Source of the DNA: Promethearchaeota archaeon
GTDB taxonomy: Archaea; Asgardarchaeota; Lokiarchaeia; Sigyniarchaeales; SOKP01
DNA: 24,000 nucleotides
NCBI GenBank assembly: GCA_048938005.1
Contig: JBHLMQ010000022.1
Coordinates: 1-24,000, forward strand
Reading direction: 5' to 3'
In this document: one piece after another, positions 3,527 through 15,915 of the stretch
Numbering within the stretch: position 1 is the stretch's first letter
Layout: each line of letters begins with the position of its first letter
Notes under the pieces: model-generated
What the model was told of the DNA's origin: nothing
The model's input: only the letters and a program-made list of their open reading frames with translations
Database searches by the model: none
Position numbers and translations under genes: made by a program

Positions 3527-4147
3527 TTATTCATCTGATTTGAGACGATTTAATTCTTTCTCTAACTCGGCTATTTTTTCATCAGAAGCTGCCGTAGGTA
3601 ATGCCGCGCCCATTTCTACTTGAATTTCAGCATCAATTTCACCTAGAACTTCATTTACATCTGCATCGCTGACAGCCGTATCTAATGTAATACTATCTAT
3701 ACCATCTGTTGCGATTTCTGCGGTAACGGCGAAGTCTTCCATATCAACATCAATATTTTTCATGATTTCTGTAAGTTGTGGAATCGACATTTGGGCTTTT
3801 AAGGTTGCGAGAGATTTTGCTATTCCTACCATGATTTCAGATACATCTTTTACAGCATCAGCTTGCTCTAGTTTAAATAATAATCCTTCTAAGTTTGTCC
3901 TGAATCCATCTAAAGCACGAGCATGTTTTTTCGTTTGAAGATAATTTCTTGCATGGAATTTTGAGCCATCCATGTCACCTTGTTTTCGAAGACTCACTGC
4001 CTTATCTCTTGCTATTTTTGCGCTCATTTCCATCTTTTTTGTCTGCCGCATCAATTTTTTATTAAAAACTCTCAATTTAGTTGCTGGACGAACATCTTTT
4101 TTCCTACCTCCTGAAAGCCACTTAGAGATATCTTTTAGAAAACCCAT
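3527..4147 (-). CDS. ESCRT-III subunit, Vps2/Vps24/Vps46 (CHMP1-3)-like, with a C-terminal MIM1-like helix
   Basis: Snf7-family helical hairpin core. 'KQGDMDGSKFHARNYLQTKKHARALDGFRTNLEGLLFKLEQADAVKDVSEIMVGIAKSLATLKAQMSIPQLTEIMKNIDVDMEDFAVTAEIATDGID' aligns closely with human CHMP2 'KQGQMDAVRIMAKDLVRTRRYVRKFVLMRANIQAVSLKIQTLKSNNSMAQAMKGVTKAMGTMNRQLKLPQIQKIMMEFERQAEIMDMKEEMMNDAID'. An acidic C-terminal part ends in 'IAELEKELNRLKSDE'. The track ORF begins at a TTG (4156); I prefer the ATG at 4147, which gives MGFLKD.... Confidence 0.87.
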   Translation of the reverse strand: MGFLKDISKWLSGGRKKDVRPATKLRVFNKKLMRQTKKMEMSAKIARDKAVSLRKQGDMDGSKFHARNYLQTKKHARALDGFRTNLEGLLFKLEQADAVKDVSEIMVGIAKSLATLKAQMSIPQLTEIMKNIDVDMEDFAVTAEIATDGIDSITLDTAVSDADVNEVLGEIDAEIQVEMGAALPTAASDEKIAELEKELNRLKSDE

Positions 4148-4425
4148 ATTTATCAAATCTAATTAGTAATTATATATTATATAAATATTTATTTACTAAT
4201 ATAATTTTTTGGAGACCAGTAATTATCCTCGTTGTTTAAACAGTAAATTTGATTTATGCTAATAAAATTATTATTATTGCAGAAGGATATTAAGAAATTT
4301 CATAGTTATGCAAAATCTTTGTCTCTACTTTTTTACCAACTATAAGTAAATATGATATATTCTCGATAAATATTATTTATATATAATAATTAATACAATA
4401 ATCAAAACAAGAAAAGATGAAATGA
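4148..4425. promoter_or_regulatory. Divergent promoter region between the ESCRT-III and Vps4 genes
   Basis: 278-bp very AT-rich spacer between divergent start codons. It contains ATAAATATTTAT (4181-4192, 34-45 nt upstream of the ESCRT-III ATG), ATAAATATTATTTAT (4366-4380, 46-60 nt upstream of the Vps4 ATG) and a central 10-bp palindrome TGTTTAAACA (4233-4242). Assigning TATA/BRE function is inference only. Confidence 0.4.
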
Positions 4426-5643
4426 ATGTCCTCAGTCGATTCTAAATTATATCAATATGCTGTTAAAACAGCAAAAGAAGCAGTAGCTTTAGATAATCAA
4501 GGAAAGTTAAGACAAGCTATTAATATGTACTCTAGAGCTGCTGAAATCTTGATGCAATTTATGAAATATAATAAAAATCCTCAAATGAGAATGCTATGTC
4601 AAAGAAATATTGAAGAGTATGTTGATCGGGCCAGAATTTTGAAATCACATTTAAGTGGGGTGAGACCAAGGAGAGTAAGAGCTGCTGAAAGACCAAGTGA
4701 GGCACAAGATGCTGGAGCAGATTCTGAAGGAGTTGCTGTCTCATCAGAAGAACAGGAACTTATTGATATGATATCAGGAACAATAGTTACAGAATCACCA
4801 AATGTAAAATGGGATGATATTGCTGGATTACAAAATGTAAAGCAAGCTTTAAGAGAAGCAATCGTTTTACCAATAGTAAAACCAGAATTATTTAAAGGTG
4901 CGAGAAGACCTTGGTCAGGAATATTGCTATTTGGGCCTCCTGGATGTGGTAAGACTTTATTAGCAAAAGCCGCTGCAACTGAATGTAAAGCTACTTTTTT
5001 TAGTGCATCTTCAGCTGATTTATTAAGTAAATGGTTAGGTGAAAGTGAAAAGTTAATTAGTTCATTATTTAAAGTTGCTCGTTTAAAAGCACCTAGTTTA
5101 ATATTTATGGACGAAATAGATTCAGTAGCGACAAAGCGGGGAGAAGGTTCTGAAAGTGGAGGTGAAAGAAGGGTAAAAACGCAACTTTTAAGTGAAATTC
5201 AAGGATTAAAGTCGACTTTTGATAAACCATTATTAGTTTTAGGAGCCACAAACCGTCCTTGGGATATTGATAATGCTATGTTAAGTAGATTTGAAAAAAG
5301 AGTGCAAGTGCCTCTTCCAGATTTAAAGGCTCGAGCAGGAATTTTTAAAATTCATACTGAAGGAGTCAATTCAGCATTAACAGATGAGGATTTTATTGAA
5401 TTAGCTGTAAGGACTGAAGGTTATTCTGGTAGAGATATTGCAAATATCTGTCGTGAAGTGATTATGTTACCTATTCGTGAATTGGATATGAGTGGTCTTT
5501 TAGAAAATTCAGATAAAGAAGTAAAACTTAGAGATATCACATTGAAGGATTTCAAGAAAACACTTAAAAAAGTAAAACCGATGACTCACACGGCATTAAT
5601 GAAAAAATATAATGATTGGGCAGAGGAATTCGGAGAAGTATAA
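4426..5643 (+). CDS. vps4: Vps4-type AAA+ ATPase (N-terminal MIT domain plus a single AAA cassette)
   Basis: 405 aa.
- MIT-like three-helix N-terminus: 'AVKTAKEAVALDNQGKLRQAINMYSRAAEILMQFMKYNKNPQMRMLCQRNIEEYVDRARILKSHL'.
- Ser/Glu-rich linker.
- Walker A GPPGCGKT (nt 4933-4956).
- Walker B 'LIFMDEIDS'.
- Second region of homology 'GATNRPWDIDNAMLSRFEKR'.
- Vps4-type C-terminal helix 'YNDWAEEFGEV'. Confidence 0.93.
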   Translation: MSSVDSKLYQYAVKTAKEAVALDNQGKLRQAINMYSRAAEILMQFMKYNKNPQMRMLCQRNIEEYVDRARILKSHLSGVRPRRVRAAERPSEAQDAGADSEGVAVSSEEQELIDMISGTIVTESPNVKWDDIAGLQNVKQALREAIVLPIVKPELFKGARRPWSGILLFGPPGCGKTLLAKAAATECKATFFSASSADLLSKWLGESEKLISSLFKVARLKAPSLIFMDEIDSVATKRGEGSESGGERRVKTQLLSEIQGLKSTFDKPLLVLGATNRPWDIDNAMLSRFEKRVQVPLPDLKARAGIFKIHTEGVNSALTDEDFIELAVRTEGYSGRDIANICREVIMLPIRELDMSGLLENSDKEVKLRDITLKDFKKTLKKVKPMTHTALMKKYNDWAEEFGEV

Positions 5644-5652
5644 AAATTTTTG

Positions 5653-6555
5653 ATGATTAAAATGGAAAGGCAGAGAGAAAAAACTACAGAAATTCCTAAG
5701 GAAGTCAAAGAGAGAGCTGAAAAAGAGTTAGAGGAATTAAGGAAAGAGCTTGCTAGATTAAGAAAATTAAAGAAAGAAAAAGAACAGTTGGAAATAGAAG
5801 CAGCTCAAAAACAAATCATTAAGGAAGAAGAAATTAAGGCAACTGAGTTAAACTATATAGAAGAACAATTTGATAAACTTGAAGATATATTATCATCCAA
5901 GTTGGGTGAAATTGATCAAAAAGTATACCGCCAACATGCTGATCAGATCGAAGCAGAACTGCAAACCCTTGAAGAAGAAATTATTGGAGAAAAAGGTGTA
6001 ATAGAAAAAAAATTAACTGCTTACGAAAATTTATTGAAAGCTTATCCTTGGCTTAAGGAGGAACGTAAGAAGTTTATGTATACAATGCCAAACAAGAAGA
6101 AAAATAAAACTGATTACGTTTCTTGGAAAGTAGAATGGGCAAAAGTTCTTTTTGATTACGCAAGATTTGCTGTCTTACATATAATTTATATCAGAGAATT
6201 GAATTCTCAAAAGCCATTTTCAAATTTCACAAAACGAGAAGAATACATAAAGGAAATTGCAGAGGAATTAATAAGTCAAAATCAAGCGAAATGGCTCTCA
6301 AAAGAGAAAAAGAGATTAAGAGTATACTGGAAGACTTTAGAAGCTTGGTCAGACGAAATCTACAAATGGTGTTATGAAAATGGGAAAATCGAAACTATTA
6401 TGATATACGAATTACGAGAGGCATCTCAAGAAGATTTTAGTACACTTCCACTAGAAGATCTAGAAGAAATATTTAAAATCCTAGCAAAAAACCAAAGAGC
6501 TAAGGTATTTAAATTAGAAAATGGACAATTAGCATTTAAGATTAAACTGGAATAA
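5653..6555 (+). CDS. ESCRT-II Vps25-like protein (tandem winged helix) with a long N-terminal coiled-coil extension
   Basis: The C-terminal ~170 aa align along their length with human VPS25. 'YPWLKE..FMYTMPNKKKNKTDYVSWKVEWAKVLFDYARFAV' corresponds to 'WPWQYRFPPFFTLQPNVDTRQKQLAAWCSLVLSFCRLHK'. 'LRVYWKTLEAWSDEIYKWCYENGKIETIMIYELREASQEDFSTLPLEDLEEIFKILAKNQRAKVFKLENGQLAFK' corresponds to 'FLIMWRRPEEWGKLIYQWVSRSGQNNSVFTLYELTNGEDTEDEEFHGLDEATLLRALQALQQEHKAEIITVSDGRGVKF'. The N-terminal ~130 aa are E/K-rich heptad-like coiled coil. The gene starts 10 nt after the Vps4 stop, so it is probably co-transcribed. The ATG at 5653 or 5662 is preferred over the TTG at 5650. Confidence 0.78.
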   Translation: MIKMERQREKTTEIPKEVKERAEKELEELRKELARLRKLKKEKEQLEIEAAQKQIIKEEEIKATELNYIEEQFDKLEDILSSKLGEIDQKVYRQHADQIEAELQTLEEEIIGEKGVIEKKLTAYENLLKAYPWLKEERKKFMYTMPNKKKNKTDYVSWKVEWAKVLFDYARFAVLHIIYIRELNSQKPFSNFTKREEYIKEIAEELISQNQAKWLSKEKKRLRVYWKTLEAWSDEIYKWCYENGKIETIMIYELREASQEDFSTLPLEDLEEIFKILAKNQRAKVFKLENGQLAFKIKLE

Positions 6556-6570
6556 TATAAAATTCTTATT

Positions 6571-7284
6571 TTACAAAGAAGGGAAATACCATTGTTTCCC
6601 TGTTAGGATATTTTCCCTAAATTTAGCTACCCCACTCTTTTCGAGAGATTCTAAGGCTCGAAGAGCACGATCTTGCGACCATTCTAAATTAGCGCACACA
6701 TCTTCTAAAGTAAGAACTCCTTTCTCTTTAGCTAAATCAACAACTTTTGCTTCATCGCCTGTATATTGAATAGGAAAAAACCGTACAATAATAGCTCCTG
6801 AATCTAATTGGATAATATCTTCAATAACTCTTGTCTTTTTCAACATTTTCAACGCCTTTTCAACATCTTTTATTTCGACATTCCCTTTCAAAATACCCGT
6901 ATTTACTAGTTCAAACACTTCTGATAATGGGATTATGCCTCCAGTTTCTTCTTTACTCATCAAAACTCTCTGATATGCTAACATCCCTAACTTCTCGTGA
7001 TCAATTTTGGAGAATTTCCTCAATACATCATGCTCTGTAATTTGTTCAGTAATAATTTTTGAAGATGGAATGTTATATTTTTTTTGCAATTCTTTTACTT
7101 CTTCTCTTAATTCTGGTGTTAAAGCTAATAAAACTCCATGTTTCTTAGCTAATTCTCTAAGATTATCTTTTGTAAATTTTTCAACTGCAGCTTTTGCTTG
7201 TATATCTTTCATTTTCAGTTCTGCTGCCTTCTTTTTCATCGCTTCTTTTAAATCAATCTCATCTTCTATCTTTCGAATGCCCAT
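6571..7284 (-). CDS. ESCRT-II Vps22/Vps36 (EAP30/SNF8)-like protein
   Basis: 237 aa, aligning over the full length with human SNF8/EAP30.
- 'FTKDNLRELAKKHGVLLALTPELREEVKELQKKYNIP' corresponds to 'FKTNLEEFASKHKQEIRKNPEFRVQFQDMCATIGVDP'.
- 'ETGGIIPLSEVFELVN' corresponds to 'RNGGLITLEELHQQV'.
- 'VVDLAKEKGVLTLEDVCANLEWSQDRALRALESLEKSGVAKF...GKQWYFPSL' corresponds to 'VLQLAEKNGYVTVSEIKASLKWETERARQVLEHLLKEGLAWLD...EAHYWLPALF'. Confidence 0.82.
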   Translation of the reverse strand: MGIRKIEDEIDLKEAMKKKAAELKMKDIQAKAAVEKFTKDNLRELAKKHGVLLALTPELREEVKELQKKYNIPSSKIITEQITEHDVLRKFSKIDHEKLGMLAYQRVLMSKEETGGIIPLSEVFELVNTGILKGNVEIKDVEKALKMLKKTRVIEDIIQLDSGAIIVRFFPIQYTGDEAKVVDLAKEKGVLTLEDVCANLEWSQDRALRALESLEKSGVAKFRENILTGKQWYFPSL

Positions 7285-7363
7285 TTTTAGATAACACTAT
7301 TTTTTAATACCTTTATTGATTAATAATAATAAAACTTCTTATTTCTTTTTATTTTTATTAACA

Positions 7364-7942
7364 ATGAGCAATATTTTGAGTTTTAGACAGATCAACGAAA
7401 TTGAAAAAGAAATAATGATTACTTCTCTTTCAAAGATCTCTTCAGAATTTTCACAGATTATTGAGAATTATAGAACATTTTTATATATTTCAATAGAAAG
7501 GGCAGTATCTAAAAACAAATTTCCCAATATTTTTTTAATTTCAAAAGATCAAGTTAGGTTATTACATTCTTTAAACAACAATAAAATTATCTCAGCCGGT
7601 TTATATTTTGGATTTATCAAGAAAGGTAATTTTTATTTAAGCTTAGAAGGTGCGGAATTTCTATATAAACAAGATATTTTTTCTGATTTTAAAAGACTTT
7701 ATATTAACGAGAAAGGAGAAAAGTCTATTCTATATGGAAATAATATTTTAAAAAAAATGGTTATCAAACCACCTTCAAATCTCCAGAAACAAGATTTTTT
7801 ATTAGTCTTTAACGAAATTGATGAAATAATAGCTATTGCCCAATCTAAAGTTGAGAATATAAAGTTCAAACAGTTAAAATCTAATGAAATTATTGCTGTT
7901 AACTTAAGTGATAAAGGACTTTATTTAAGGAAAAAGCAATAA
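7364..7942 (+). CDS. nip7: NIP7-like ribosome-biogenesis / PUA-domain RNA-binding protein
   Basis: 'KIISAGLYFGFIKKGNFYLSLEGAEFL', 'GEKSILYGNNILKKMV', 'FLLVFNEIDEIIAIAQSK' and 'NLSDKGLYLRK' parallel human NIP7 '[28 protein letters not shown]', 'AEQSFLYGNHVLKSGL', 'VVVYSMADIPLGFGVAAKS' and 'HQADIGEYVR'. The track ORF starts at a TTG (7316) and adds a hydrophobic low-complexity leader. The ATG at 7364 (MSNILSF...) is preferred. Confidence 0.75.
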   Translation: MSNILSFRQINEIEKEIMITSLSKISSEFSQIIENYRTFLYISIERAVSKNKFPNIFLISKDQVRLLHSLNNNKIISAGLYFGFIKKGNFYLSLEGAEFLYKQDIFSDFKRLYINEKGEKSILYGNNILKKMVIKPPSNLQKQDFLLVFNEIDEIIAIAQSKVENIKFKQLKSNEIIAVNLSDKGLYLRKKQ

Positions 7943-8210
7943 AAAACATAGTTAGTATATTTCAAAATATAAAAATATAAGGACTAAATTTTGACAAACT
8001 ACAATTTTGTAAAAGATTTTTATACCTTTGATTCGTTTAAAGGGAGGATTTCACCCTAGTTTCTCCCAAAACCTTTAAGTTAAATTAATGCATGAATTAT
8101 TTCATTTTTTGTAAATATAAATTCATTAGGACCAAATTTTTACAAAAAGTCATAAAAAGAGAAAAAAACGTTATTAATTTTCAAAAAATATGATTCTTTA
8201 AATTTGTGAA

Positions 8211-9539
8211 TTAATTATAATGCTCTCCATTTTTTTCGTAGTTTTTATTTAATAACTTAATCTCTTCATCCGAAATTTGTTTCATCTCATCTTCTAGCTC
8301 ATCATAGAGTTTTATAAACTCAGATGGGAAGGAGAGAGGAGATTTTATCAATTCAGCTTTAATAGATTGAAATTGTTCTTCATCTGTAAATATTTTTTTG
8401 AGTTTATTTTCCAATTCTAATGGAATTTTCAAAAATCTACCCGTTAATAATAGAGGTTGTTTTTTACTTTTTATAATTTTGTAAGGAAAATTGGAAAAAT
8501 ATTTTTCAATCAATTCAAATGCGCTTTCATATTGAGACATATCTTTAACCGATTTTTTTAATTCTCGCTCAAATTTTTTCTCGAAATCTTGTGTAAAATT
8601 CAAAACAGACTCACGTAACAATTTGGAAGATTTAGATGCGACTAAACCCACTGTAATTGATTTTGATTCATTCAAAATCAAAATACCTTCTTCCAAATTG
8701 ATATCTAATAAACCCCCAATATTCATTAGTTCTTCGCTCATGAGTTGAACAGCATTTAAAAATCCTGTAAATATATCTTCATCGATGTTTAATTCAGTCC
8801 AATCATGATCGTATATTGGATAACCTTCTCTATCTTTTACAACTAATCTATATATGGTGAATGGTAATATGTATAGCAATTTTGGTTCTTTTATAATAGC
8901 AATGATAAAGATTAGAATTCCTAAACCCATCATAATATCTGCATATACAATAAATATTGGCTCCAAATAAAAAAATATATACACGATAAGAGAAGCTGGT
9001 AGAGCAAGGCAAATACCTAGGAATAATATTAAGGCTTCTTTTTTAATTAAAAAAGGAGCATTTAACCAAGTTTTAAAACCCCAATAAAAAAGGATAACCA
9101 CTCCAGAAATTTGAAACAAATCACCCATTATCGCTAAAATACCGGCCCAATTTACATTAAAATATCCAGATTCGAATACAATTACAGCAGTTCCTGGTAA
9201 AAATATTGAATAACATGCTATTGAACCTAAAATACAGATTATGATTAAACCTACGGATTTAAAAGATTCTGAAATAACATAATTCACTCCTATTACTAGA
9301 AAAATTATGGCAAAAACAACGAAAATTAAGCTAATTTTTGATAATATTTGGTTCACTAAAAGAATTGTTAGGCAATCAATATAAAAATATATGGCAATTA
9401 AAAGGATACCTAGTCTAATAAAAAACAACGATTTTATTTTTTTTGTTTTAGGTTCAAAATAAGTTAATGCTGAAGCTATTAGTGTTATTGTCGCAACATA
9501 CAAATCCACTATTGCTTCAGGTGCCCAGTTTAATTCCAT
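8211..9539 (-). CDS. Polytopic membrane protein with a cytoplasmic longin/roadblock-like domain and a helical acidic tail
   Basis: 442 aa. Residues ~1-218 are successive hydrophobic helices. Residues ~225-330 (nt ~8550-8867), 'IYRLVVKDREGYPIYDHDWTELNIDEDIFTGFLNAVQLMSEELMNIGGLLDINLEEGILILNESKSITVGLVASKSSKLLRESVLNFTQDFEKKFEREL', show the beta-beta-alpha-beta-beta-beta-alpha pattern and the 'GFL.A...F' signature of longin/sybindin/roadblock-type domains. The domain assignment comes from pattern recognition only. Confidence 0.6.
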   Translation of the reverse strand: MELNWAPEAIVDLYVATITLIASALTYFEPKTKKIKSLFFIRLGILLIAIYFYIDCLTILLVNQILSKISLIFVVFAIIFLVIGVNYVISESFKSVGLIIICILGSIACYSIFLPGTAVIVFESGYFNVNWAGILAIMGDLFQISGVVILFYWGFKTWLNAPFLIKKEALILFLGICLALPASLIVYIFFYLEPIFIVYADIMMGLGILIFIIAIIKEPKLLYILPFTIYRLVVKDREGYPIYDHDWTELNIDEDIFTGFLNAVQLMSEELMNIGGLLDINLEEGILILNESKSITVGLVASKSSKLLRESVLNFTQDFEKKFERELKKSVKDMSQYESAFELIEKYFSNFPYKIIKSKKQPLLLTGRFLKIPLELENKLKKIFTDEEQFQSIKAELIKSPLSFPSEFIKLYDELEDEMKQISDEEIKLLNKNYEKNGEHYN

Positions 9540-9594
9540 GTTTCCTATTTACTCCTCTATTAATATATTAGTATTTCTATTTTAATATTTAAAT

Positions 9595-10314
9595 TCATTC
9601 AACTGTATTTGTTTTTTTAGTTAATATTCGAACAATAAAATCTTTCTTATTTGGATTTATATAAATCAAGTTATCTAATTCTTCTTTTACTAATAAAATT
9701 TTATGTTCAATTAAACCATTGATTCGATAATACACATTTTCTCTTTTTTCATTGATTAACTTATAAATTTCTGATTTTTTAAGTGATTCTTGCTCAGTTA
9801 TTAAATTAACAATTTTCATATTAATTTTGTCTCCTAACAAAAAATTAAGAATTCCCATTTCCCTATCCATTTCATATGGAAGAAAAACAGAGTAGTTCCC
9901 AACTTTTATTTTTTTAATATATTCGAATTTCAATAGCATCTCTAAATGCCAGATTAATTGCCCCGAACTTACTAAATTGTCTGTTTGATTATCTTTTAAA
10001 ATTTTTCTAATTAAAGAGTAATGAACTGCTCCATTTTTTTTAATGAAGCGAAAGATATTATATCTCAATCTATTTGAAAGTACAGTTTCTTTAGAAAATT
10101 TGGAGCCTTCTATTAATATCTTTTTATTAATCAAAAAATGGATGATAGATATTAATCCGCTTTTCGGTATTTTTAATCGTTTTTTTGCTAAATTATATAA
10201 ATTCTCTAGGTTGAGAATTTTATTTTTATTCATAATTTCCTCAGCTATCTCCAAAACTCTCTTCACACTTGGATGTTCTAATCCAATTGGTGTAGTTAGA
10301 ATCTGAGTTTTCAT
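9595..10314 (-). CDS. Multi-winged-helix (2-3 wHTH repeats) protein, putative DNA-binding regulator
   Basis: 239 aa with three successive ~65-aa segments that look like winged-helix domains. Examples: 'RLRYNIFRFIKKNGAVHYSLIRKILKDNQTDNLVSSGQLIWHLEMLLKFEYIKKIKVGNYSVFLP' and 'MKIVNLITEQESLKKSEIYKLINEKRENVYYRINGLIEHKILLVKEE'. It lies 55 nt upstream of the membrane-longin gene on the same strand. Confidence 0.6.
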   Translation of the reverse strand: MKTQILTTPIGLEHPSVKRVLEIAEEIMNKNKILNLENLYNLAKKRLKIPKSGLISIIHFLINKKILIEGSKFSKETVLSNRLRYNIFRFIKKNGAVHYSLIRKILKDNQTDNLVSSGQLIWHLEMLLKFEYIKKIKVGNYSVFLPYEMDREMGILNFLLGDKINMKIVNLITEQESLKKSEIYKLINEKRENVYYRINGLIEHKILLVKEELDNLIYINPNKKDFIVRILTKKTNTVE

Positions 10315-10331
10315 ATTAGAGATAACCTATT

Positions 10332-10718
10332 TTATTCTATGACGTAAATCGAATTATAATGCTCCTTATCAGATATCATATATAATTCTTTTTTTAAATT
10401 GTTGAATAAGCATATAAATTCTGAAAATGTTCCCTTTGGGGCTTTCAGAATTTCAAGTTTTACTAATTTCCTAACTTTGGCATCTTTAATAGATTTATCA
10501 AGAATTCTATAAAGATTGTTCCTTAATAAATATAGAAATAAATTATCCTTAAAAATATATATTTTGAATATAGGTCTTAAAATTTTTGGTAATGTTAATA
10601 ACTTGTAATTTTTTCTGTTTAATTTTTGAATCCTACCTTTAGATTTTGAGATTAAATCCTCTGTTCTTCTTAAAGTATTTGATTTCCTATTACTGCCTTT
10701 TTTTATTGAATTCTGCAT
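10332..10718 (-). CDS. Small basic hypothetical protein
   Basis: 128-aa ORF with a Lys/Arg-rich N-terminus (KKGSNRKSNTLRRTEDLISKSKGRIQKLNRKNYK). It ends 17 nt before the wHTH gene on the same strand. No recognisable motif, so the coding status rests on ORF length and operon context. Confidence 0.45.
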   Translation of the reverse strand: MQNSIKKGSNRKSNTLRRTEDLISKSKGRIQKLNRKNYKLLTLPKILRPIFKIYIFKDNLFLYLLRNNLYRILDKSIKDAKVRKLVKLEILKAPKGTFSEFICLFNNLKKELYMISDKEHYNSIYVIE

Positions 10719-12792: not shown

Positions 12793-12800
12793 ATCACCTC
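12793..12800 (-). promoter_or_regulatory. Shine-Dalgarno ribosome-binding site overlapping the upstream stop codon
   Basis: The minus strand reads aTTTGAGGTGATttagaaatATG. GAGGTGAT is an 8-nt complement of the 16S rRNA 3' end and sits 8 nt before the ATG at 12784. The TGA stop of the HD gene (12801-12799) overlaps the first two SD bases. Confidence 0.55.
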
Positions 12801-14280
12801 AAATAATTATGATATCATGTGCTATGATATTTTCCTTTTTTTCCTTCTTATGTTTAATTATTTTAATGTCATGAAGGTTAATAGTAGTTTTAGGAAATAG
12901 GTTTCCACTATTTAACCTTCCAAATGTTTTTTTCTTCTCATTTGAAAATAGATTGAAATTAAATTTCATTAGATCTTTAGCTTGTTCATTTCTAAATTGC
13001 ATTAACCATGAAAACTCGTCTAAAGTTAGTAATAGCTCATCTAAGAGAGTGACTTTTTCCAATTCAGTTGTAAAATATGTATCGCGTATTTGAATTGGAA
13101 TGGGTCTACCCCACTCTTGTAGTTCATCTATTAGCATTAAGAAAAACGCCAATGGTTGCTCATCAAACAAATAATCTTTAAGATTTGCTTTAAAATTATG
13201 CAAAGCTATGGCTCGTGCTGCTAGAATATATCCAATATATTCATCATTTTTTTTAATTTCTTCTGGTGTTCCAAGTCCCTTCAGTAGAGAAAGTGCAGAA
13301 ATAACTCCATGATCTAATTCTACAGGGCTCTTGTAATTATATTCAGGATGACCATCTGGTTGATTCAAGAAAATTTGAGAATTTTGAGAAGGAAGTTCCT
13401 GAAATTTAAATCCAGCGCCTTCTCTTATTAAAATACGAGCTTCTTTAGAAAGTCCTTCTTCTATAATCGTCAGATATTTTTCTTGCTCACCTTTCCAAGC
13501 TAAATTGATTTCAAAGGGAATAAATTCTAAATCTATAGTAGGATAGCATTTTAGGATTTGGTTAACAAGTGAATAGTTAACAGCGGTTGTCATTTTACCT
13601 AATGGATAACCAATATCATGGAGTAGCCCTACAATCCACCAAAATTTGTCTTTAAGAAGATTTCTGTCTAAGTCTGTTAATTCAGAAATAATTCCTTCTA
13701 AGGAACCTTGACCAAGGTCTTGTTCTAATAAGAAATCTCCTAATACTGCCACACGAAGTGCATGTTCAGTATGATCTCTATAATACTTTTTTACACTTGT
13801 ACTATAAAGAAAAGCTTCTAGGTCTGGTAAAGCACGTATTAAATACAACAATCCCTTTGATTCGATACCTCTTTCTTTAGATACATCATAAAGGGCCGAT
13901 GACAAATTTTTTTTCTTTCCAGTTAGAAAATCCAATCCAGGAATTACGTCTAATTTTTCAATCCCCTGAAGAGATTGTTCAATTCCTTTAGTTATTGGTT
14001 TTTTAACACTTTCAATGATATCCATTGAAAAACTCGAGAATTTTTTCCCAAAACCCCCTAATTTGGCAAATTCTTTTTGGGCTGAAGCTAACTCCTTATC
14101 TAAGTCCTGAAAGGAGATTTTATCTTTTTCTTTTTTAATTTGTTCAAGAACTTCTGGAGGTGCTTCTTCAAGTGATCTTTCGACTGATTCTAACAGATTG
14201 TTTACCCAATTAGAAAAACTATTGCTTTGGGAGGATATCCTGTTTAAGATCCAATCATCATTTATATGGAAATCTGGCAA
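12799..14280 (-). CDS. HD-domain metal-dependent phosphohydrolase with long N- and C-terminal extensions; start uncertain
   Basis: 493-aa ORF. HD signature 'YYRDHTEHALRVAVLGDFLL ... WWIVGLLHDIGYPLGK ... ELDHGVISALSL ... ARAIALHNF'. The track start is a TTG at 14280 and the first in-frame ATG is ~85 codons downstream. The intervening sequence looks protein-like, so the true start is unresolved. Confidence 0.7.
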   Translation of the reverse strand: MPDFHINDDWILNRISSQSNSFSNWVNNLLESVERSLEEAPPEVLEQIKKEKDKISFQDLDKELASAQKEFAKLGGFGKKFSSFSMDIIESVKKPITKGIEQSLQGIEKLDVIPGLDFLTGKKKNLSSALYDVSKERGIESKGLLYLIRALPDLEAFLYSTSVKKYYRDHTEHALRVAVLGDFLLEQDLGQGSLEGIISELTDLDRNLLKDKFWWIVGLLHDIGYPLGKMTTAVNYSLVNQILKCYPTIDLEFIPFEINLAWKGEQEKYLTIIEEGLSKEARILIREGAGFKFQELPSQNSQIFLNQPDGHPEYNYKSPVELDHGVISALSLLKGLGTPEEIKKNDEYIGYILAARAIALHNFKANLKDYLFDEQPLAFFLMLIDELQEWGRPIPIQIRDTYFTTELEKVTLLDELLLTLDEFSWLMQFRNEQAKDLMKFNFNLFSNEKKKTFGRLNSGNLFPKTTINLHDIKIIKHKKEKKENIIAHDIIII

Positions 14281-14541: not shown

Positions 14542-15915
14542 ATGGTTTATTTTGAGATTGATCAGTTAGGATTTAATTGCGGAAAAATTAAAGAGAAATG
14601 TTCAAAGTATCCTAAGTTTTGCATGGATTGTGTTAAAAATAAATTAAAACAACTTGGTTTTGAAATAGATTCTAATTTGAAAGTATTTGAAGTTGATTCT
14701 TATGAACGTCGCCTTCAGATGGAACGCGAATTAATTTGGCGAAAATTTTTAGATGTTCTAAATATAAGACATGTTATAATTATTGATAAGGATTCTGGAT
14801 TAACTCTTTTAAACTATCCTGTATCTGGTGAAGAGATAAACGCAGATTTATTGAGCGGTTTCATTCAAGCAAATATCACCTTTTCTGAATCACATAAAGG
14901 TTCATACAAGAGTTCACCCTCAGCAAGAAATCATAAATTTTATGAATTCCAATACCAAAATTTCAATATACTTTTAAGGAATGGAGAATTCATTCGGCTT
15001 TGTTTAATGCTTGATCATAAAGCTTCTGAAAATATGAGAACTCAAGTTCTCCAATTCATTCCTGAATTTGAAGAAATTTTTAATCAAGAGCTACAAAATT
15101 TTAGAAATGCTGGAATGTTTTATTACAAGAATATGGTTGATTATATCATTGATATACTTGAAATTAAGTTAGTTTTTCCGATGAAATTGGCTCATTCAAT
15201 CACTCCTAAAGATTTAGAAAGTATTAATCAAAATCAACTTCAAAAAGCGATATATAATATTGCTAAGGAATTACTCATTTCAAAATCATTCTTTTTTATT
15301 AATAATCTACTCAACCGAGTGAAAAAAATTGTTAATCTAGATGCAAATGTTATTTTATTTCAGATATATCAGTTAGTAGAGAATAAAACCATTATTCCAA
15401 CAAAGTTAGAAGCAGCTGTAAGTAATATCGAGATGATTCAAGAAGCTAGGGACGAAAAGATTGCTAAATATAAGCCAATTTCTTCTATTATTATAACAGA
15501 TTCAGATTTGGAAAATTTAAAAGAAAAAGTAGAAGATATGGATGAGAGTTCAGCAAATAAGATGATAAAGGAATTGATCAAGAAAGGAAAAGCAGCTGAA
15601 AAGTCTCTGGCGTATCAGGTTGGCGAACATGAATATAAAAAAGCCTTATTTCTAGCAAGGGAATTTAATTTGAAAACAGAAATGGATAGAATTTCAAAAT
15701 TGTTATTAGATTTAGATAAACAAGTTAAACAAATAGAGTTAGATTTTACTTTGAAAGCAGGAGAAAATGCCGAAAAAAGTGGTGATAAGATAAATAGTAT
15801 TCACTATTATCAAAAAGCATTAAAGATACTTGAAAGTTTTTTAATTTATAATATTTCTGATTCTCGAATTAAAAAATTGAAGAAGAAAATTATTAAACTC
15901 CGTGAAGAGATATAA
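14542..15915 (+). CDS. Multidomain protein: Cys4 N-terminus, longin/roadblock-like domain, winged-helix-like segment, C-terminal TPR/MIT-like helical repeats
   Basis: 457 aa.
- N-terminus: 'FNCGKIKEKCSKYPKFCMDCVK' (C-x6-C-x6-C-x2-C).
- Residues ~74-186 (nt ~14761-15099): 'IRHVIIIDKDSGLTLLNYPVSGEEINADLLSGFIQANITFSES...YEFQYQNFNILLRNGEFIRLCLMLDHKASENMRTQVLQFIPEFEEIFNQEL', the same domain pattern as in the 442-aa membrane protein.
- Residues ~338-457 (nt ~15553-15912): two helical repeats, 'GKAAEKSLAYQVGEHEYKKALFLAREFN' and 'LKAGENAEKSGDKINSIHYYQKALKILESFLIYNISDSRIKKLKKKIIKLREEI'. The second resembles a MIT/TPR three-helix unit. Confidence 0.6.
   Translation: MVYFEIDQLGFNCGKIKEKCSKYPKFCMDCVKNKLKQLGFEIDSNLKVFEVDSYERRLQMERELIWRKFLDVLNIRHVIIIDKDSGLTLLNYPVSGEEINADLLSGFIQANITFSESHKGSYKSSPSARNHKFYEFQYQNFNILLRNGEFIRLCLMLDHKASENMRTQVLQFIPEFEEIFNQELQNFRNAGMFYYKNMVDYIIDILEIKLVFPMKLAHSITPKDLESINQNQLQKAIYNIAKELLISKSFFFINNLLNRVKKIVNLDANVILFQIYQLVENKTIIPTKLEAAVSNIEMIQEARDEKIAKYKPISSIIITDSDLENLKEKVEDMDESSANKMIKELIKKGKAAEKSLAYQVGEHEYKKALFLAREFNLKTEMDRISKLLLDLDKQVKQIELDFTLKAGENAEKSGDKINSIHYYQKALKILESFLIYNISDSRIKKLKKKIIKLREEI

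What the first reader, a model, noticed from the sequence alone, without database searches (positions are those of the whole stretch)
8211..9539. Polytopic membrane protein fused to a longin/roadblock-like cytoplasmic domain
The N-terminal ~218 residues form a multi-helix membrane domain. Residues ~225-330 have the strand-strand-helix-strand-strand-strand-helix pattern and the 'DIFTGFLNAVQLMSEEL' helix. These recall longin/sybindin (TRAPP Bet5/Trs23, SNARE longin, AP sigma) and roadblock/MglB domains, which are regulators of eukaryotic vesicle trafficking and small GTPases.

A direct membrane anchor for such a domain is unusual. The gene lies under 1 kb from the end of the ESCRT/NIP7 block. 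It could be an archaeal membrane-recruitment platform. This is a pattern-level assignment, not a verified homology.
Basis: inference. Interest (0 to 1): 0.65.

Follow-up and report, generated by a model that had tools for sequence, protein, structure and literature searches.

The report
Asgard 7TM receptor with longin domain
This gene encodes a seven-helix membrane protein of Asgard archaea whose cytoplasmic part has the "longin" fold known from eukaryotic trafficking proteins; it is almost always paired with a DNA-binding regulator gene, so it is most likely an uncharacterised signal receptor rather than an ESCRT or vesicle-trafficking factor.

Summary
ORF 8211-9539 (-) encodes a 442-aa protein with seven TM helices (residues 7-217, N-out/C-in). 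A cytoplasmic β-β-α-β-β-β-α-α domain (229-348) and a low-confidence helical tail (355-442) follow. A confident domain-only AlphaFold model (pLDDT 84, pTM 0.80) hits only longin and roadblock structures in the PDB top 50. Longins align over the full length (Sec22b TM 0.73/0.78), so the fold is longin-type. Sequence support is weak (Fuz_longin_1 in 4/65 members, best E 1.3e-4).

The functional reading changes. ESCRT adjacency is synteny of one ortholog group only. The conserved partner is the upstream gene 9595-10314, a multi-winged-helix regulator: it is present in 50/52 genome loci, with a median gap of 24 bp and co-varying identity (r = 0.84). One Lokiarchaeal relative has it fused to the receptor. 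Tail-less relatives lack this partner. Other relatives fuse the same 7TM-longin module to HisKA-HATPase_c, in one case followed by a receiver gene. Cytoplasm-facing parts are conserved, and the TM and extracellular parts are variable. Small-GTPase genes are not enriched nearby.

Best reading: a paralog-rich, apparently Asgard-restricted family of 7TM sensors that use a longin-fold transmitter and control a dedicated transcription factor. Every step of the mechanism is inferred. I found no published description.

The parts
8211..9539 (-). Whole gene: 442-aa 7TM-longin protein (receptor)
   Evidence: ORF. It is conserved full-length in hundreds of Asgard MAG proteins. No Pfam or NCBIfam hit is significant.
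8889..9539 (-). Seven-TM domain, residues 1-217, N-terminus outside
   Evidence: Hydropathy and positive-inside rule. AF2 helices have pLDDT about 90. Foldseek gives weak matches to GPCR 7TM bundles, best E 5.8e-3. Relatives give sub-threshold 7TMR-DISM_7TM and HisKA_7TM hits. This is the most variable part of the protein (entropy 1.62 in A1).
9147..9188 (-). Predicted extracellular beta-hairpin between TM4 and TM5 (residues 118-131)
   Evidence: AF2 strands 118-123 and 126-131. It is the most variable segment (entropy 1.88). G125 is 84% conserved across the superfamily.
9036..9062 (-). Conserved cytoplasmic loop motif N-A-P-F-L-I-K-K-E (residues 160-168, TM5/TM6 junction)
   Evidence: P162 is 96% and K166 is 79% conserved across 99 diverse members. 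Loop entropy is 0.81 against 1.62 for the 7TM domain as a whole.
8859..8888 (-). TM7-to-longin linker E-P-K-L-L-Y-I-L-P-F (residues 218-227), the most conserved segment
   Evidence: Entropy 0.31 in A1. P219, L225 and P226 are at least 92% conserved across the superfamily.
8496..8855 (-). Cytoplasmic longin-fold domain, residues 229-348 (b1 b2 a1 b3 b4 b5 a2 a3)
   Evidence: Domain-only AF2 model has pLDDT 84.4 and pTM 0.80. All top 50 Foldseek PDB hits are longin or roadblock; Sec22b gives TM 0.73/0.78 and rmsd 2.6 A. Fuz_longin_1 hits 4/65 members, best E 1.3e-4. The best PDB sequence-profile hit is a Roadblock domain at E 0.14, not significant.
8214..8477 (-). C-terminal helical tail, residues 355-442; inferred docking region for the HTH partner
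   Evidence: Low pLDDT helices, yet conserved within the subfamily (entropy 1.28). The tail is absent from the ~355-aa relatives, which also lack the partner gene. In P0123 the partner is fused after this tail.
9540..9594 (-). 55-nt junction between partner gene and receptor gene, with a GAGGAG Shine-Dalgarno-like motif at 9552-9557
   Evidence: Sequence read directly. The median junction in 53 homologous pairs is 24 bp.
9595..10314 (-). Co-transcribed partner: 239-aa multi-winged-helix (HTH) protein, likely a transcription factor
   Evidence: A homolog is found within the 6-kb flanks in 50/52 loci, and directly upstream on the same strand for 53 of 62 family ORFs. All 21 homologs hit HTH_HVO_0163_N (best E 3.3e-10); 11 hit HTH_20 (best E 3.3e-7), and others hit HTH_24, TrmB or HTH_5. 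The nearest PDB sequences are Lrp/AsnC-type HTH regulators. It is fused to the receptor in P0123 (45% identity, E 6e-52).
8151..8190 (-). T-runs (T6, T7, T5) just downstream of the stop codon, consistent with archaeal oligo-T termination of the two-gene unit
   Evidence: Sequence read directly. The termination role is inferred.

Best explanation
The gene encodes a membrane signal receptor. A variable seven-helix bundle faces outward and senses a signal, which is unknown. The bundle is rigidly linked to a conserved cytoplasmic longin-fold domain through two conserved cytoplasmic elements: the TM5/6 loop NAPxxLKK and the TM7 linker PKLxYILPF. The longin domain acts as the transmitter, in the position that PAS, GAF or HAMP domains occupy in bacterial sensors. 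In this subfamily the output is a dedicated multi-winged-helix DNA-binding protein encoded directly upstream in the same operon. The receptor's C-terminal helical tail, with the longin domain, is proposed to bind and hold this regulator at the membrane and to release or capture it when the receptor changes state, so that transcription changes. Sister subfamilies wire the same 7TM-longin input module to a histidine kinase plus response regulator, or carry no built-in output.

Shown by computation: the architecture, the fold, the operon pairing, the fusions, the conservation pattern and the Asgard labels. Inferred: sensing, the physical receptor-regulator contact, DNA binding by the partner, and the direction of regulation.
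For: Seven TM helices with N-out/C-in topology. Confident longin-fold model whose top PDB hits are exclusively longin or roadblock. The same 7TM-longin module is followed by HisKA and HATPase_c in P0178, P0206, P0270 and P0283; these sit in clusters of 4 and 9 members on separate contigs, and one is followed by a receiver gene. A partner HTH homolog is found in 50/52 genome loci, directly upstream on the same strand in nearly all (median gap 24 bp), and its identity co-varies with the receptor's (r = 0.84), so paralogs duplicated as pairs. The Rosetta-stone fusion P0123 is seen on 3 contigs. The tail and the partner co-occur: 50/52 tail-bearing loci against 0/6 short or HK forms, Fisher p = 7e-7. 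The partner is made of winged-helix DNA-binding-type domains. Cytoplasmic elements are conserved while the TM and extracellular parts are variable, and there are 2-4 paralogs per genome, as expected for a diversifying sensor family. Relatives give weak 7TMR-DISM_7TM and HisKA_7TM hits.
Against: There is no experimental data for any member. No ligand or signal can be named. The receptor-regulator contact rests only on gene order, one fusion and co-occurrence; I could not run a complex prediction. The identity co-variation partly reflects shared phylogeny. The window protein has no enzymatic output domain, and the tail is predicted with low confidence. Longin domains in eukaryotes are best known as GTPase or SNARE regulators, not as transmitters to transcription factors. 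One tail-bearing paralog (L028) has no partner gene.
Confidence: 0.55

Rival explanations
1. Membrane-anchored longin platform for small GTPases. The cytoplasmic longin domain, alone or as a dimer, recruits or regulates (as GEF or GAP) one of the many Asgard Arf/Rab/Rag-like GTPases at the cell membrane, with the 7TM part acting as anchor or sensor. This is.
For: The longin fold resembles GTPase-binding longins (AP sigma with Arf1, Mon1-Ccz1, TRAPP, SRX). The only recurring sequence hit is the Fuz/Mon1/HPS1 RabGEF longin. A few loci have a GTPase gene adjacent (L054 at 33 bp, L060 directly upstream). Asgard GTPase genes are generally not in operons with their roadblock or longin partners (PMC10933270), so missing linkage is weak counter-evidence.
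Against: GTPase genes are not enriched near family genes: 11 in 707 kb, in 9 of 58 loci, at scattered distances. The conserved partner is an HTH protein, not a GTPase. The HK fusions place the domain in a classical transmitter position. Sequence similarity to GTPase-regulating longins is below curated thresholds.
Confidence: 0.15
2. Transporter or channel with a cytoplasmic regulatory domain. The seven helices move a solute, and the longin domain and HTH partner couple transport status to gene expression, as in transceptor or Mlc-PtsG-type sequestration.
For: It is a polytopic membrane protein with conserved buried polar residues (D54, N86/E91, D200 in the A1 consensus). A membrane protein sequestering a transcription factor is a known logic for transporters.
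Against: No transporter family is hit in Pfam, NCBIfam or the PDB. The best fold matches are receptor 7TM bundles. A single 7-helix bundle without an internal repeat is atypical for secondary transporters. The TM region is the least conserved part.
Confidence: 0.1
3. ESCRT or vesicle-trafficking accessory. The protein is a membrane adaptor that works with the neighbouring ESCRT-II, ESCRT-III and Vps4 genes.
For: The gene lies 268 bp from NIP7 and about 1 kb from EAP30/ESCRT-II. This arrangement recurs in about 20 Lokiarchaeial genomes. Longin domains occur in other Asgard ESCRT-linked proteins (PMC10936438).
Against: The arrangement travels with general synteny (RsmB, CYTH and NIP7 are conserved too). 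Insertions of 2-4 kb often separate the gene from the ESCRT block. The more distant copies (below about 52% identity) almost all lack ESCRT neighbours, L028 being the one exception. The genes are on different strands, with NIP7 in between. The large ESCRT survey does not list such a component.
Confidence: 0.05

Closest known systems
Longin domains of eukaryotic trafficking proteins (Sec22b, VAMP7, Ykt6, AP/COPI sigma and zeta subunits, sedlin/TRAPP, Mon1-Ccz1, SRX)
   Same: Same predicted fold and helix order (b-b-a-b-b-b-a-a). TM-scores are 0.6-0.78 over about 125-140 aligned columns. There are weak Fuz_longin_1 sequence hits. Longin SNAREs are also membrane-tethered.
   Different: Sequence identity is 9-18%, and no curated longin model is matched above threshold. 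Here the domain is C-terminal to a 7TM bundle and joined by a short rigid linker, whereas in SNAREs it is N-terminal to a SNARE motif and a single anchor. The conserved partner is an HTH protein, not a GTPase, SNARE or coat.
Asgard 'NPRL2-like longin' fusions with two-component signalling domains (Liu et al., bioRxiv 10.1101/2020.10.19.343400, Fig. 5c text)
   Same: These are Asgard longin-type domains wired into prokaryotic signal-transduction architectures. The HisKA-HATPase_c fusions found here may belong to that set.
   Different: The accessible text of that paper mentions no 7TM module and no HTH partner operon. I could not check whether this family is among their asCOGs. NPRL2 was not among the top 50 fold hits.
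Prokaryotic 7TM receptors with cytoplasmic output modules (7TMR-DISM, HisKA_7TM kinases, E. coli DgcT/CdgI 7TM-GGDEF; PMC10760455, and own knowledge of Anantharaman and Aravind 2003)
   Same: A seven-helix input module coupled to histidine kinase or other outputs. Weak Pfam hits to 7TMR-DISM_7TM and HisKA_7TM appear in some members. GPCR-like fold matches also occur.
   Different: The hits are sub-threshold. There is no extracellular DISMED domain. A longin-fold transmitter and a separate winged-helix partner have not been reported for these families in the literature I could search.
Roadblock/LC7-MglB and the Streptomyces conservon (membrane sensor kinase + roadblock + GTPase; own knowledge)
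   Same: A related alpha/beta sandwich superfamily linked to membrane sensors and signalling. Asgard Roadblock2 (9jq8) and a Roadblock domain (8yqk) are among the fold and sequence hits.
   Different: The roadblock N-terminal helix is absent and the helix order is longin (PMC10933270). Roadblock structures align over only 75-95 columns. No GTPase linkage was found.
Membrane sequestration of transcription factors (for example Mlc-PtsG, or anti-sigma/sigma pairs; own knowledge)
   Same: This is the proposed logic: a membrane protein holds a dedicated DNA-binding regulator encoded in the same operon and releases it on a signal.
   Different: There is no homology. The sequestration here is inferred, not shown.

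Membership tests
Longin domain (SNARE-like / longin superfamily) | Five-stranded antiparallel sheet with order b1-b2-a1-b3-b4-b5-a2-a3 (no N-terminal helix, two C-terminal helices) | tested here: met
   The domain-only AF2 model has strands 11-18, 23-28, 58-64, 67-73 and 77-83, and helices 36-52, 88-110 and 116-130; pLDDT 84, pTM 0.80. The topology criterion is taken from PMC10933270.
Longin domain (SNARE-like / longin superfamily) | Full-length structural superposition on solved longin domains (TM-score > 0.5) | tested here: met
   Sec22b 1ifq_A gives TM 0.73/0.78 and rmsd 2.6 A over 128 columns. VAMP7, AP sigma, sedlin and TRAPPC give 0.57-0.65. 13 hits reach E<=1e-3, and all top 50 are longin or roadblock. 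The query is a predicted structure, not a solved one.
Longin domain (SNARE-like / longin superfamily) | Significant sequence match to a curated longin family model | tested here: inconclusive
   The window protein has no hit. Fuz_longin_1 hits 4 of 65 isolated domains, best E 1.3e-4, and 4 of 99 full proteins. The other Pfam longin models (Longin, Sybindin, Sedlin_N, Clat_adaptor_s) did not appear among the families listed.
Longin domain (SNARE-like / longin superfamily) | Binding of a small GTPase, SNARE or coat partner, or dimerisation through the sheet edge | not testable with these tools
   This needs biochemistry or complex prediction.
Roadblock/LC7 (MglB, LAMTOR) | a1-b1-b2-a2-b3-b4-b5 order with an N-terminal helix; match to Robl_LC7 | tested here: not met
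   No helix of the domain precedes b1, and two helices follow b5. Roadblock structures align over only 75-95 columns. There is no Robl_LC7 Pfam hit. PDB profile hits to Roadblock chains are not significant (E 0.14 and 1.3).
Eukaryotic GPCRs | Seven TM helices, N-terminus outside, C-terminus inside | tested here: met
   Hydropathy and positive-inside rule. AF2 helices.
Eukaryotic GPCRs | Significant fold or sequence similarity to GPCR 7TM families | tested here: inconclusive
   The top Foldseek hits of the full model are mGlu5, GPR56 and class A receptors, but at E 5.8e-3 or worse, with TMq about 0.3 and TMt 0.2-0.45. The PDB is GPCR-rich. There are no 7tm_1, 7tm_2 or 7tm_3 Pfam hits. No 7TM-only model could be made.
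Eukaryotic GPCRs | Coupling to heterotrimeric G proteins or arrestins | not testable with these tools
   No such partners are known in archaea, and nothing in the loci suggests them.
Prokaryotic 7TM receptor modules (7TMR-DISM_7TM, HisKA_7TM) | Match to the family model above threshold | tested here: not met
   There are only sub-threshold hits in relatives: 7TMR-DISM_7TM in 4/99 (best E 2.6e-3) and HisKA_7TM in 2/99 (best E 4.9e-4). The window protein has none.
Two-component sensor histidine kinases | HisKA (DHp) and HATPase_c domains | tested here: not met
   Both are absent from the window protein. They are present in the relatives P0178, P0206, P0270 and P0283, which share the 7TM-longin module. 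The window protein works like their input half but is not a kinase.
ESCRT machinery component | Conserved genomic linkage with ESCRT genes across the family, or an ESCRT domain | tested here: not met
   ESCRT genes lie within 6 kb in about 14-20 of 52 loci, essentially only for the syntenic ortholog group. The more distant copies almost all lack them, the exception being L028, which lies downstream of the cluster flanked by L025 on the same contig. The protein has no ESCRT domain.

The most novel reading that the evidence does not exclude
The family is an archaeal receptor in which a GPCR-like seven-helix sensor carries its own longin transducer, and the longin domain acts on Asgard small GTPases (as GEF, GAP or docking platform) as well as on the HTH partner. 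That would make it a hard-wired prokaryotic antecedent of the eukaryotic coupling between membrane sensors and longin/roadblock GTPase regulators (SR-alpha/SR-beta, SLC38A9-Ragulator, GPR155-GATOR1). It would also be the first receptor-to-GTPase pathway in the lineage that gave rise to eukaryotes.
Probability: 0.1. Interest if true: 0.9.

Novelty: new variant of a known kind. Interest (0 to 1): 0.6.

Why it matters
Longin and roadblock domains are counted among the eukaryotic signature proteins of Asgard archaea, and they are usually read as hints of vesicle trafficking. This family shows a longin-fold domain used in a different, typically prokaryotic way: as the cytoplasmic transmitter of a paralog-rich 7TM sensor family that feeds a dedicated transcription factor or a histidine kinase. 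If that is correct, it cautions against reading every Asgard longin as trafficking machinery. It also defines a new sensor architecture that appears confined to Asgard archaea. Finally, it gives concrete, testable gene pairs (receptor plus winged-helix partner) for studying how these organisms sense their surroundings. Should the longin domain also act on small GTPases, it would bear directly on how receptor-GTPase signalling arose.

Tried and rejected
- **Direct sequence searches.** Pfam and NCBIfam scans of the protein gave only chance-level hits (WbqC, acetolactate synthase). The PDB search with the full-length profile gave only a non-significant NuoJ TM match. With the domain profile, the Roadblock chains came top but were not significant.
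- **Genome scan with diverse alignments.** The successful scan with A6 used a subfamily-specific motif, so its Asgard-only result covers the long subfamily only.
- **Named-database searches for the short subfamily.** The subfamily profiles returned only 5 and 10 proteins because of the word index. The 150-256-aa hits are fragments or mis-called genes, not a standalone domain: P0288 lies in a frameshift-rich contig after a 131-aa ORF, and P0291 starts at TM5 with 720 bp of unannotated sequence upstream.
- **Small-GTPase enrichment.** Tested and rejected.
- **ESCRT linkage as a family trait.** Tested and rejected.
- **Roadblock topology.** Rejected in favour of longin.
- **Literature.** Searches for 7TM, GPCR-like or transmembrane longin proteins in Asgard found no description of this family. 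The Liu et al. supplements are not held. HVO_0163 has no informative literature.
Full report

Yes. The window (about 24-34% GC) contains an ATG-initiated ORF at 8211..9539 on the minus strand that encodes 442 residues. It is a real, conserved gene. A word-indexed search found 401 homologs at E<=1e-3, and the best 120 are 53-68% identical over the full length. All are unannotated 'hypothetical proteins' with no Pfam domain, and every one that carries an organism label is assigned to an Asgard lineage (Lokiarchaeota/Promethearchaeota, a few Thorarchaeota or Hodarchaeota). An exhaustive profile search found 808 representative clusters at E<=1e-3 and 529 at E<=1e-10. Pfam and NCBIfam give nothing significant for the protein itself.

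**2. Anatomy**

- **Topology.** Hydropathy shows seven hydrophobic segments. Lys/Arg-rich loops alternate so that the N-terminus is outside and the C-terminal region is cytoplasmic.
- **Full-length model.** The AlphaFold2 model was built from 56 homologs (mean pLDDT 75; TM region about 90). It gives helices 7-28, 36-61, 64-90, 96-111, 134-160, 163-191 and 196-217, with a beta-hairpin (118-131) in the outside loop between TM4 and TM5. A low-confidence helical tail (355-442) ends the protein.
- **Domain-only model.** I modelled the cytoplasmic domain alone from 65 diverse sequences. The model is confident (pLDDT 84.4, pTM 0.80) and has the order b-b-a-b-b-b-a-a.

**3. What fold is the cytoplasmic domain?**

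Foldseek of the domain model against the PDB gives 13 hits at E<=1e-3, and all top 50 hits are longin or roadblock structures.
- Longin domains align over essentially the whole domain. They include AP-1/2/3 sigma and mu N-terminal domains, zeta-COP, VAMP7, Sec22b (TM 0.73/0.78, rmsd 2.6 A, 128 columns), sedlin and TRAPP core subunits, Ykt6, Mon1-Ccz1 and SRX.
- Roadblock, LC7 and LAMTOR structures align over only 75-95 columns.

Longin differs from roadblock in lacking the N-terminal helix and having an extra C-terminal one (PMC10933270). That is the order seen here, so the fold is longin-type.

Sequence support is weak but consistent. Fuz_longin_1 (the first longin domain of Fuzzy/Mon1/HPS1) is the only structurally sensible Pfam family that recurs, in 4 of 65 isolated domains with best E 1.3e-4. 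The best PDB sequence-profile hits are a Roadblock domain (E 0.14) and the Prometheoarchaeum Roadblock 9jq8 (E 1.3), neither significant. I therefore treat the longin assignment as a well-supported fold prediction and a plausible but unproven homology.

**4. What is the membrane domain?**

The best PDB matches of the full model are GPCR seven-helix bundles (mGlu5, GPR56, HCAR1, opioid and chemokine receptors). They are weak: E 5.8e-3 or worse, TMq about 0.3 and TMt 0.2-0.45. The PDB is also rich in GPCRs. A few relatives give sub-threshold hits to the prokaryotic receptor modules 7TMR-DISM_7TM (4/99, best E 2.6e-3) and HisKA_7TM (2/99, best E 4.9e-4). No transporter family is hit. I describe it as a 7TM receptor-like bundle and do not claim membership of any named 7TM family.

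**5. Family structure and fusions**

The profile search shows three architectures.
- **(a) Long form (about 435-440 aa), like the window protein.** It has the 7TM domain, the longin domain and the tail.
- **(b) Short form (about 355 aa).** It ends right after the longin domain (profile positions 1-353).
- **(c) Kinase fusions (about 630 aa).** The 7TM-longin module is followed by a coiled segment, HisKA and HATPase_c: P0178 and P0206, P0283 and P0270. These sit in clusters of 4 and 9 members on separate contigs, and P0283 is followed by a stand-alone receiver gene.

In the kinases the longin domain sits where PAS, GAF or HAMP transmitters normally sit. This is the strongest argument that the 7TM-longin unit is a signal-input module.

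**6. Gene neighbourhood**

The window carries PfkB, Snf7, Vps4, ESCRT-II, EAP30 and NIP7 on one side of the gene. On the other side it carries a 239-aa weak-HTH ORF, a 128-aa ORF, RsmB/F and CYTH. I fetched 52 loci from species-representative genomes; all that carry a phylum label are Promethearchaeota or Hermodarchaeota, and some genomes have 2-4 paralogs.
- **HTH partner.** A homolog of the 239-aa ORF is present in 50 of the 52 loci. ORF-level analysis shows it ends directly upstream on the same strand in nearly all of them. Only L028 truly lacks it; L056 is a 1.5-kb fragment, and L009 has a 1.6-kb insertion.
- **Spacing and co-variation.** Across 53 pairs the median gap is 24 bp (range -25 to 73). 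The partner's identity to the window's copy tracks the receptor's (Pearson r = 0.84), so the two genes duplicated and diverged as a unit.
- **ESCRT, NIP7, RsmB and CYTH genes.** These accompany only the ortholog group that shares overall synteny (14-26 loci depending on the gene), often with 2-4 kb insertions in between. They are missing next to the more distant copies, with the single exception of L028. ESCRT proximity is therefore a lineage-specific synteny, not a property of the family.
- **Window junctions.** The 55-nt junction carries a GAGGAG motif 12 nt before the ATG. T-runs follow the stop codon.

**7. The partner**

All 21 aligned partner homologs hit HTH_HVO_0163_N (best E 3.3e-10, residues about 84-150). 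Eleven hit HTH_20 (best E 3.3e-7, residues about 161-208), and others hit HTH_24, TrmB or ArsR-type HTH_5. The nearest PDB sequences are archaeal Lrp/AsnC-type regulators (E about 3e-3). The partner is a multi-winged-helix protein with no TM segment and is most simply read as a transcription factor.

One Lokiarchaeal protein, P0123 (676 aa, seen on three contigs), is a receptor with this partner fused after the tail (45% identity to the window's partner, E 6e-52). That locus has no separate partner gene.

Short-form loci (L057, L059, L064, L065) and kinase-fusion loci (L058, L061) all lack the partner. The count is 50/52 against 0/6, Fisher p = 7e-7. The tail and the partner thus co-occur, which suggests, by inference only, that the tail is the docking site.

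**8. Conservation pattern**

| Region | Entropy within the long subfamily (A1) |
|---|---|
| TM7-to-b1 linker EPKLLYILPF | 0.31 |
| Cytoplasmic TM5/6 loop NAPFLIKKE | 0.81 |
| Longin domain | 0.81 |
| First cytoplasmic loop | 0.96 |
| TM helices | 1.5-1.8 |
| Outside hairpin | 1.88 |

Across 99 diverse members, the nearly invariant residues are P162 in the cytoplasmic loop and residues in the linker and longin domain. A variable outer face with a conserved inner face, together with paralog expansion, is the pattern expected of a diversifying sensor family.

**9. Small GTPases**

Longin domains often regulate GTPases, so I built a GTPase profile from the loci and counted hits. There are 11 GTPase genes in 707 kb, found in 9 of 58 loci at distances from 33 to 7229 bp. 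That is about one per 64 kb. From my own knowledge this is roughly the background for GTPase-rich Lokiarchaeial genomes, but I did not measure a background. There is no visible enrichment. Asgard GTPases are generally not in operons with their regulators (PMC10933270), so this lowers the GTPase-platform reading without excluding it.

**10. Most likely mechanism (confidence about 0.55)**

The protein is a 7TM sensor. Its outward-facing, variable bundle detects an unknown signal. The change is passed through the conserved cytoplasmic loop and linker to the longin-fold transmitter and the tail. These bind the co-expressed winged-helix regulator and control its availability for DNA binding. Sister subfamilies send the same input to a histidine kinase and response regulator.
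- **Shown by computation:** architecture, fold, operon pairing, fusions, co-occurrence, conservation pattern and Asgard labels.
- **Inferred:** sensing, physical contact, DNA binding and the direction of control.
- **Rivals:** a GTPase platform (0.15), a transporter with a regulatory domain (0.10) and an ESCRT accessory (0.05).

**11. Comparison with known systems and novelty**

- **What it works like.** It works like prokaryotic 7TM receptors with cytoplasmic outputs, and like membrane proteins that sequester transcription factors.
- **What its domain looks like.** The cytoplasmic domain looks like eukaryotic longins.
- **Prior reports.** Liu et al. (bioRxiv 10.1101/2020.10.19.343400) reported many Asgard fusions of NPRL2-like longin domains with two-component domains, so the kinase fusions may already be catalogued. 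Their accessible text mentions neither a 7TM module nor the HTH operon. I found no such description in the Asgard roadblock/longin structural study, the ESCRT survey, the 2026 structure-based ESP study or the GPCR-origin literature.
- **Taxonomic spread.** Every labelled member, whether long form, short form (P0156, P0243, P0291) or fusion (P0123), is Asgard. Most metagenomic members carry no label, so restriction to Asgard is likely but not proven.
- **Rating.** I rate it a new variant of a known kind: a receptor-type signalling system with an unusual longin transmitter and a dedicated winged-helix partner.

**12. Limits**

All structural statements rest on predicted models. No complex prediction, HHpred-type profile comparison or 7TM-only fold search could be run. 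The signal is unknown. The genome scan used a motif specific to the long subfamily.

Noticed in passing
window 10332-10718 (-): This 128-aa ORF has no Pfam hit. It is nevertheless conserved between the RsmB gene and the HTH partner gene in 17 of 52 Asgard loci, so it may be a small conserved gene of unknown function.
   Followed up: partly
window 12799-14280 (-) and 14542-15915 (+): Two large ORFs (493 and 457 aa) have no Pfam family. The syntenic region of L003 has a 501-aa gene without Pfam hits next to an LRR protein.
   Followed up: no
window 7316-7942 (+): The NIP7/UPF0113 ORF as listed starts at TTG (208 aa). The pre-PUA match begins at residue 24 and the L003 ortholog is 193 aa, so the true start is probably an internal codon.
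   Followed up: no
window 3527-7284: A compact Asgard ESCRT cluster: Snf7/ESCRT-III (3527-4156, -), Vps4 with MIT and Vps4_C (4426-5643, +), a Vps25-like ESCRT-II subunit (5650-6555, +) and EAP30/Vps22-36 (6571-7284, -). It is conserved in order in about 20 related genomes.
   Followed up: partly
L025 and L028 (contig CAYUTF010000013.1): Two paralogs of the family flank the ESCRT cluster on one contig. The upstream copy has the HTH partner. The downstream copy (L028) is the only complete long-form locus without one and instead has an unrelated 340-aa ORF upstream.
   Followed up: partly
L061 1-7887: The histidine-kinase fusion member P0270 lies next to a PAP2 phosphatase, PhoU, a PstS-like binding protein and an ABC permease. 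That hints at a phosphate-related sensor. An Arf-like GTPase gene with an adjacent 110-aa ORF lies 5 kb away.
   Followed up: no
L060 157-4502: In the receptor-HTH fusion locus (P0123), the gene directly upstream on the same strand encodes a 509-aa Arf/Ras/Roc-type GTPase. In L054 a 173-aa GTPase gene lies 33 bp from the receptor gene. These are isolated cases against a background-level overall density.
   Followed up: partly
window 8211-9539 (-), residues 54, 86, 91, 200: Polar or charged residues inside or at the ends of TM2, TM3 and TM7 (D54, N86, E91, D200) are conserved in the long subfamily consensus. They could line a ligand or ion site.
   Followed up: no
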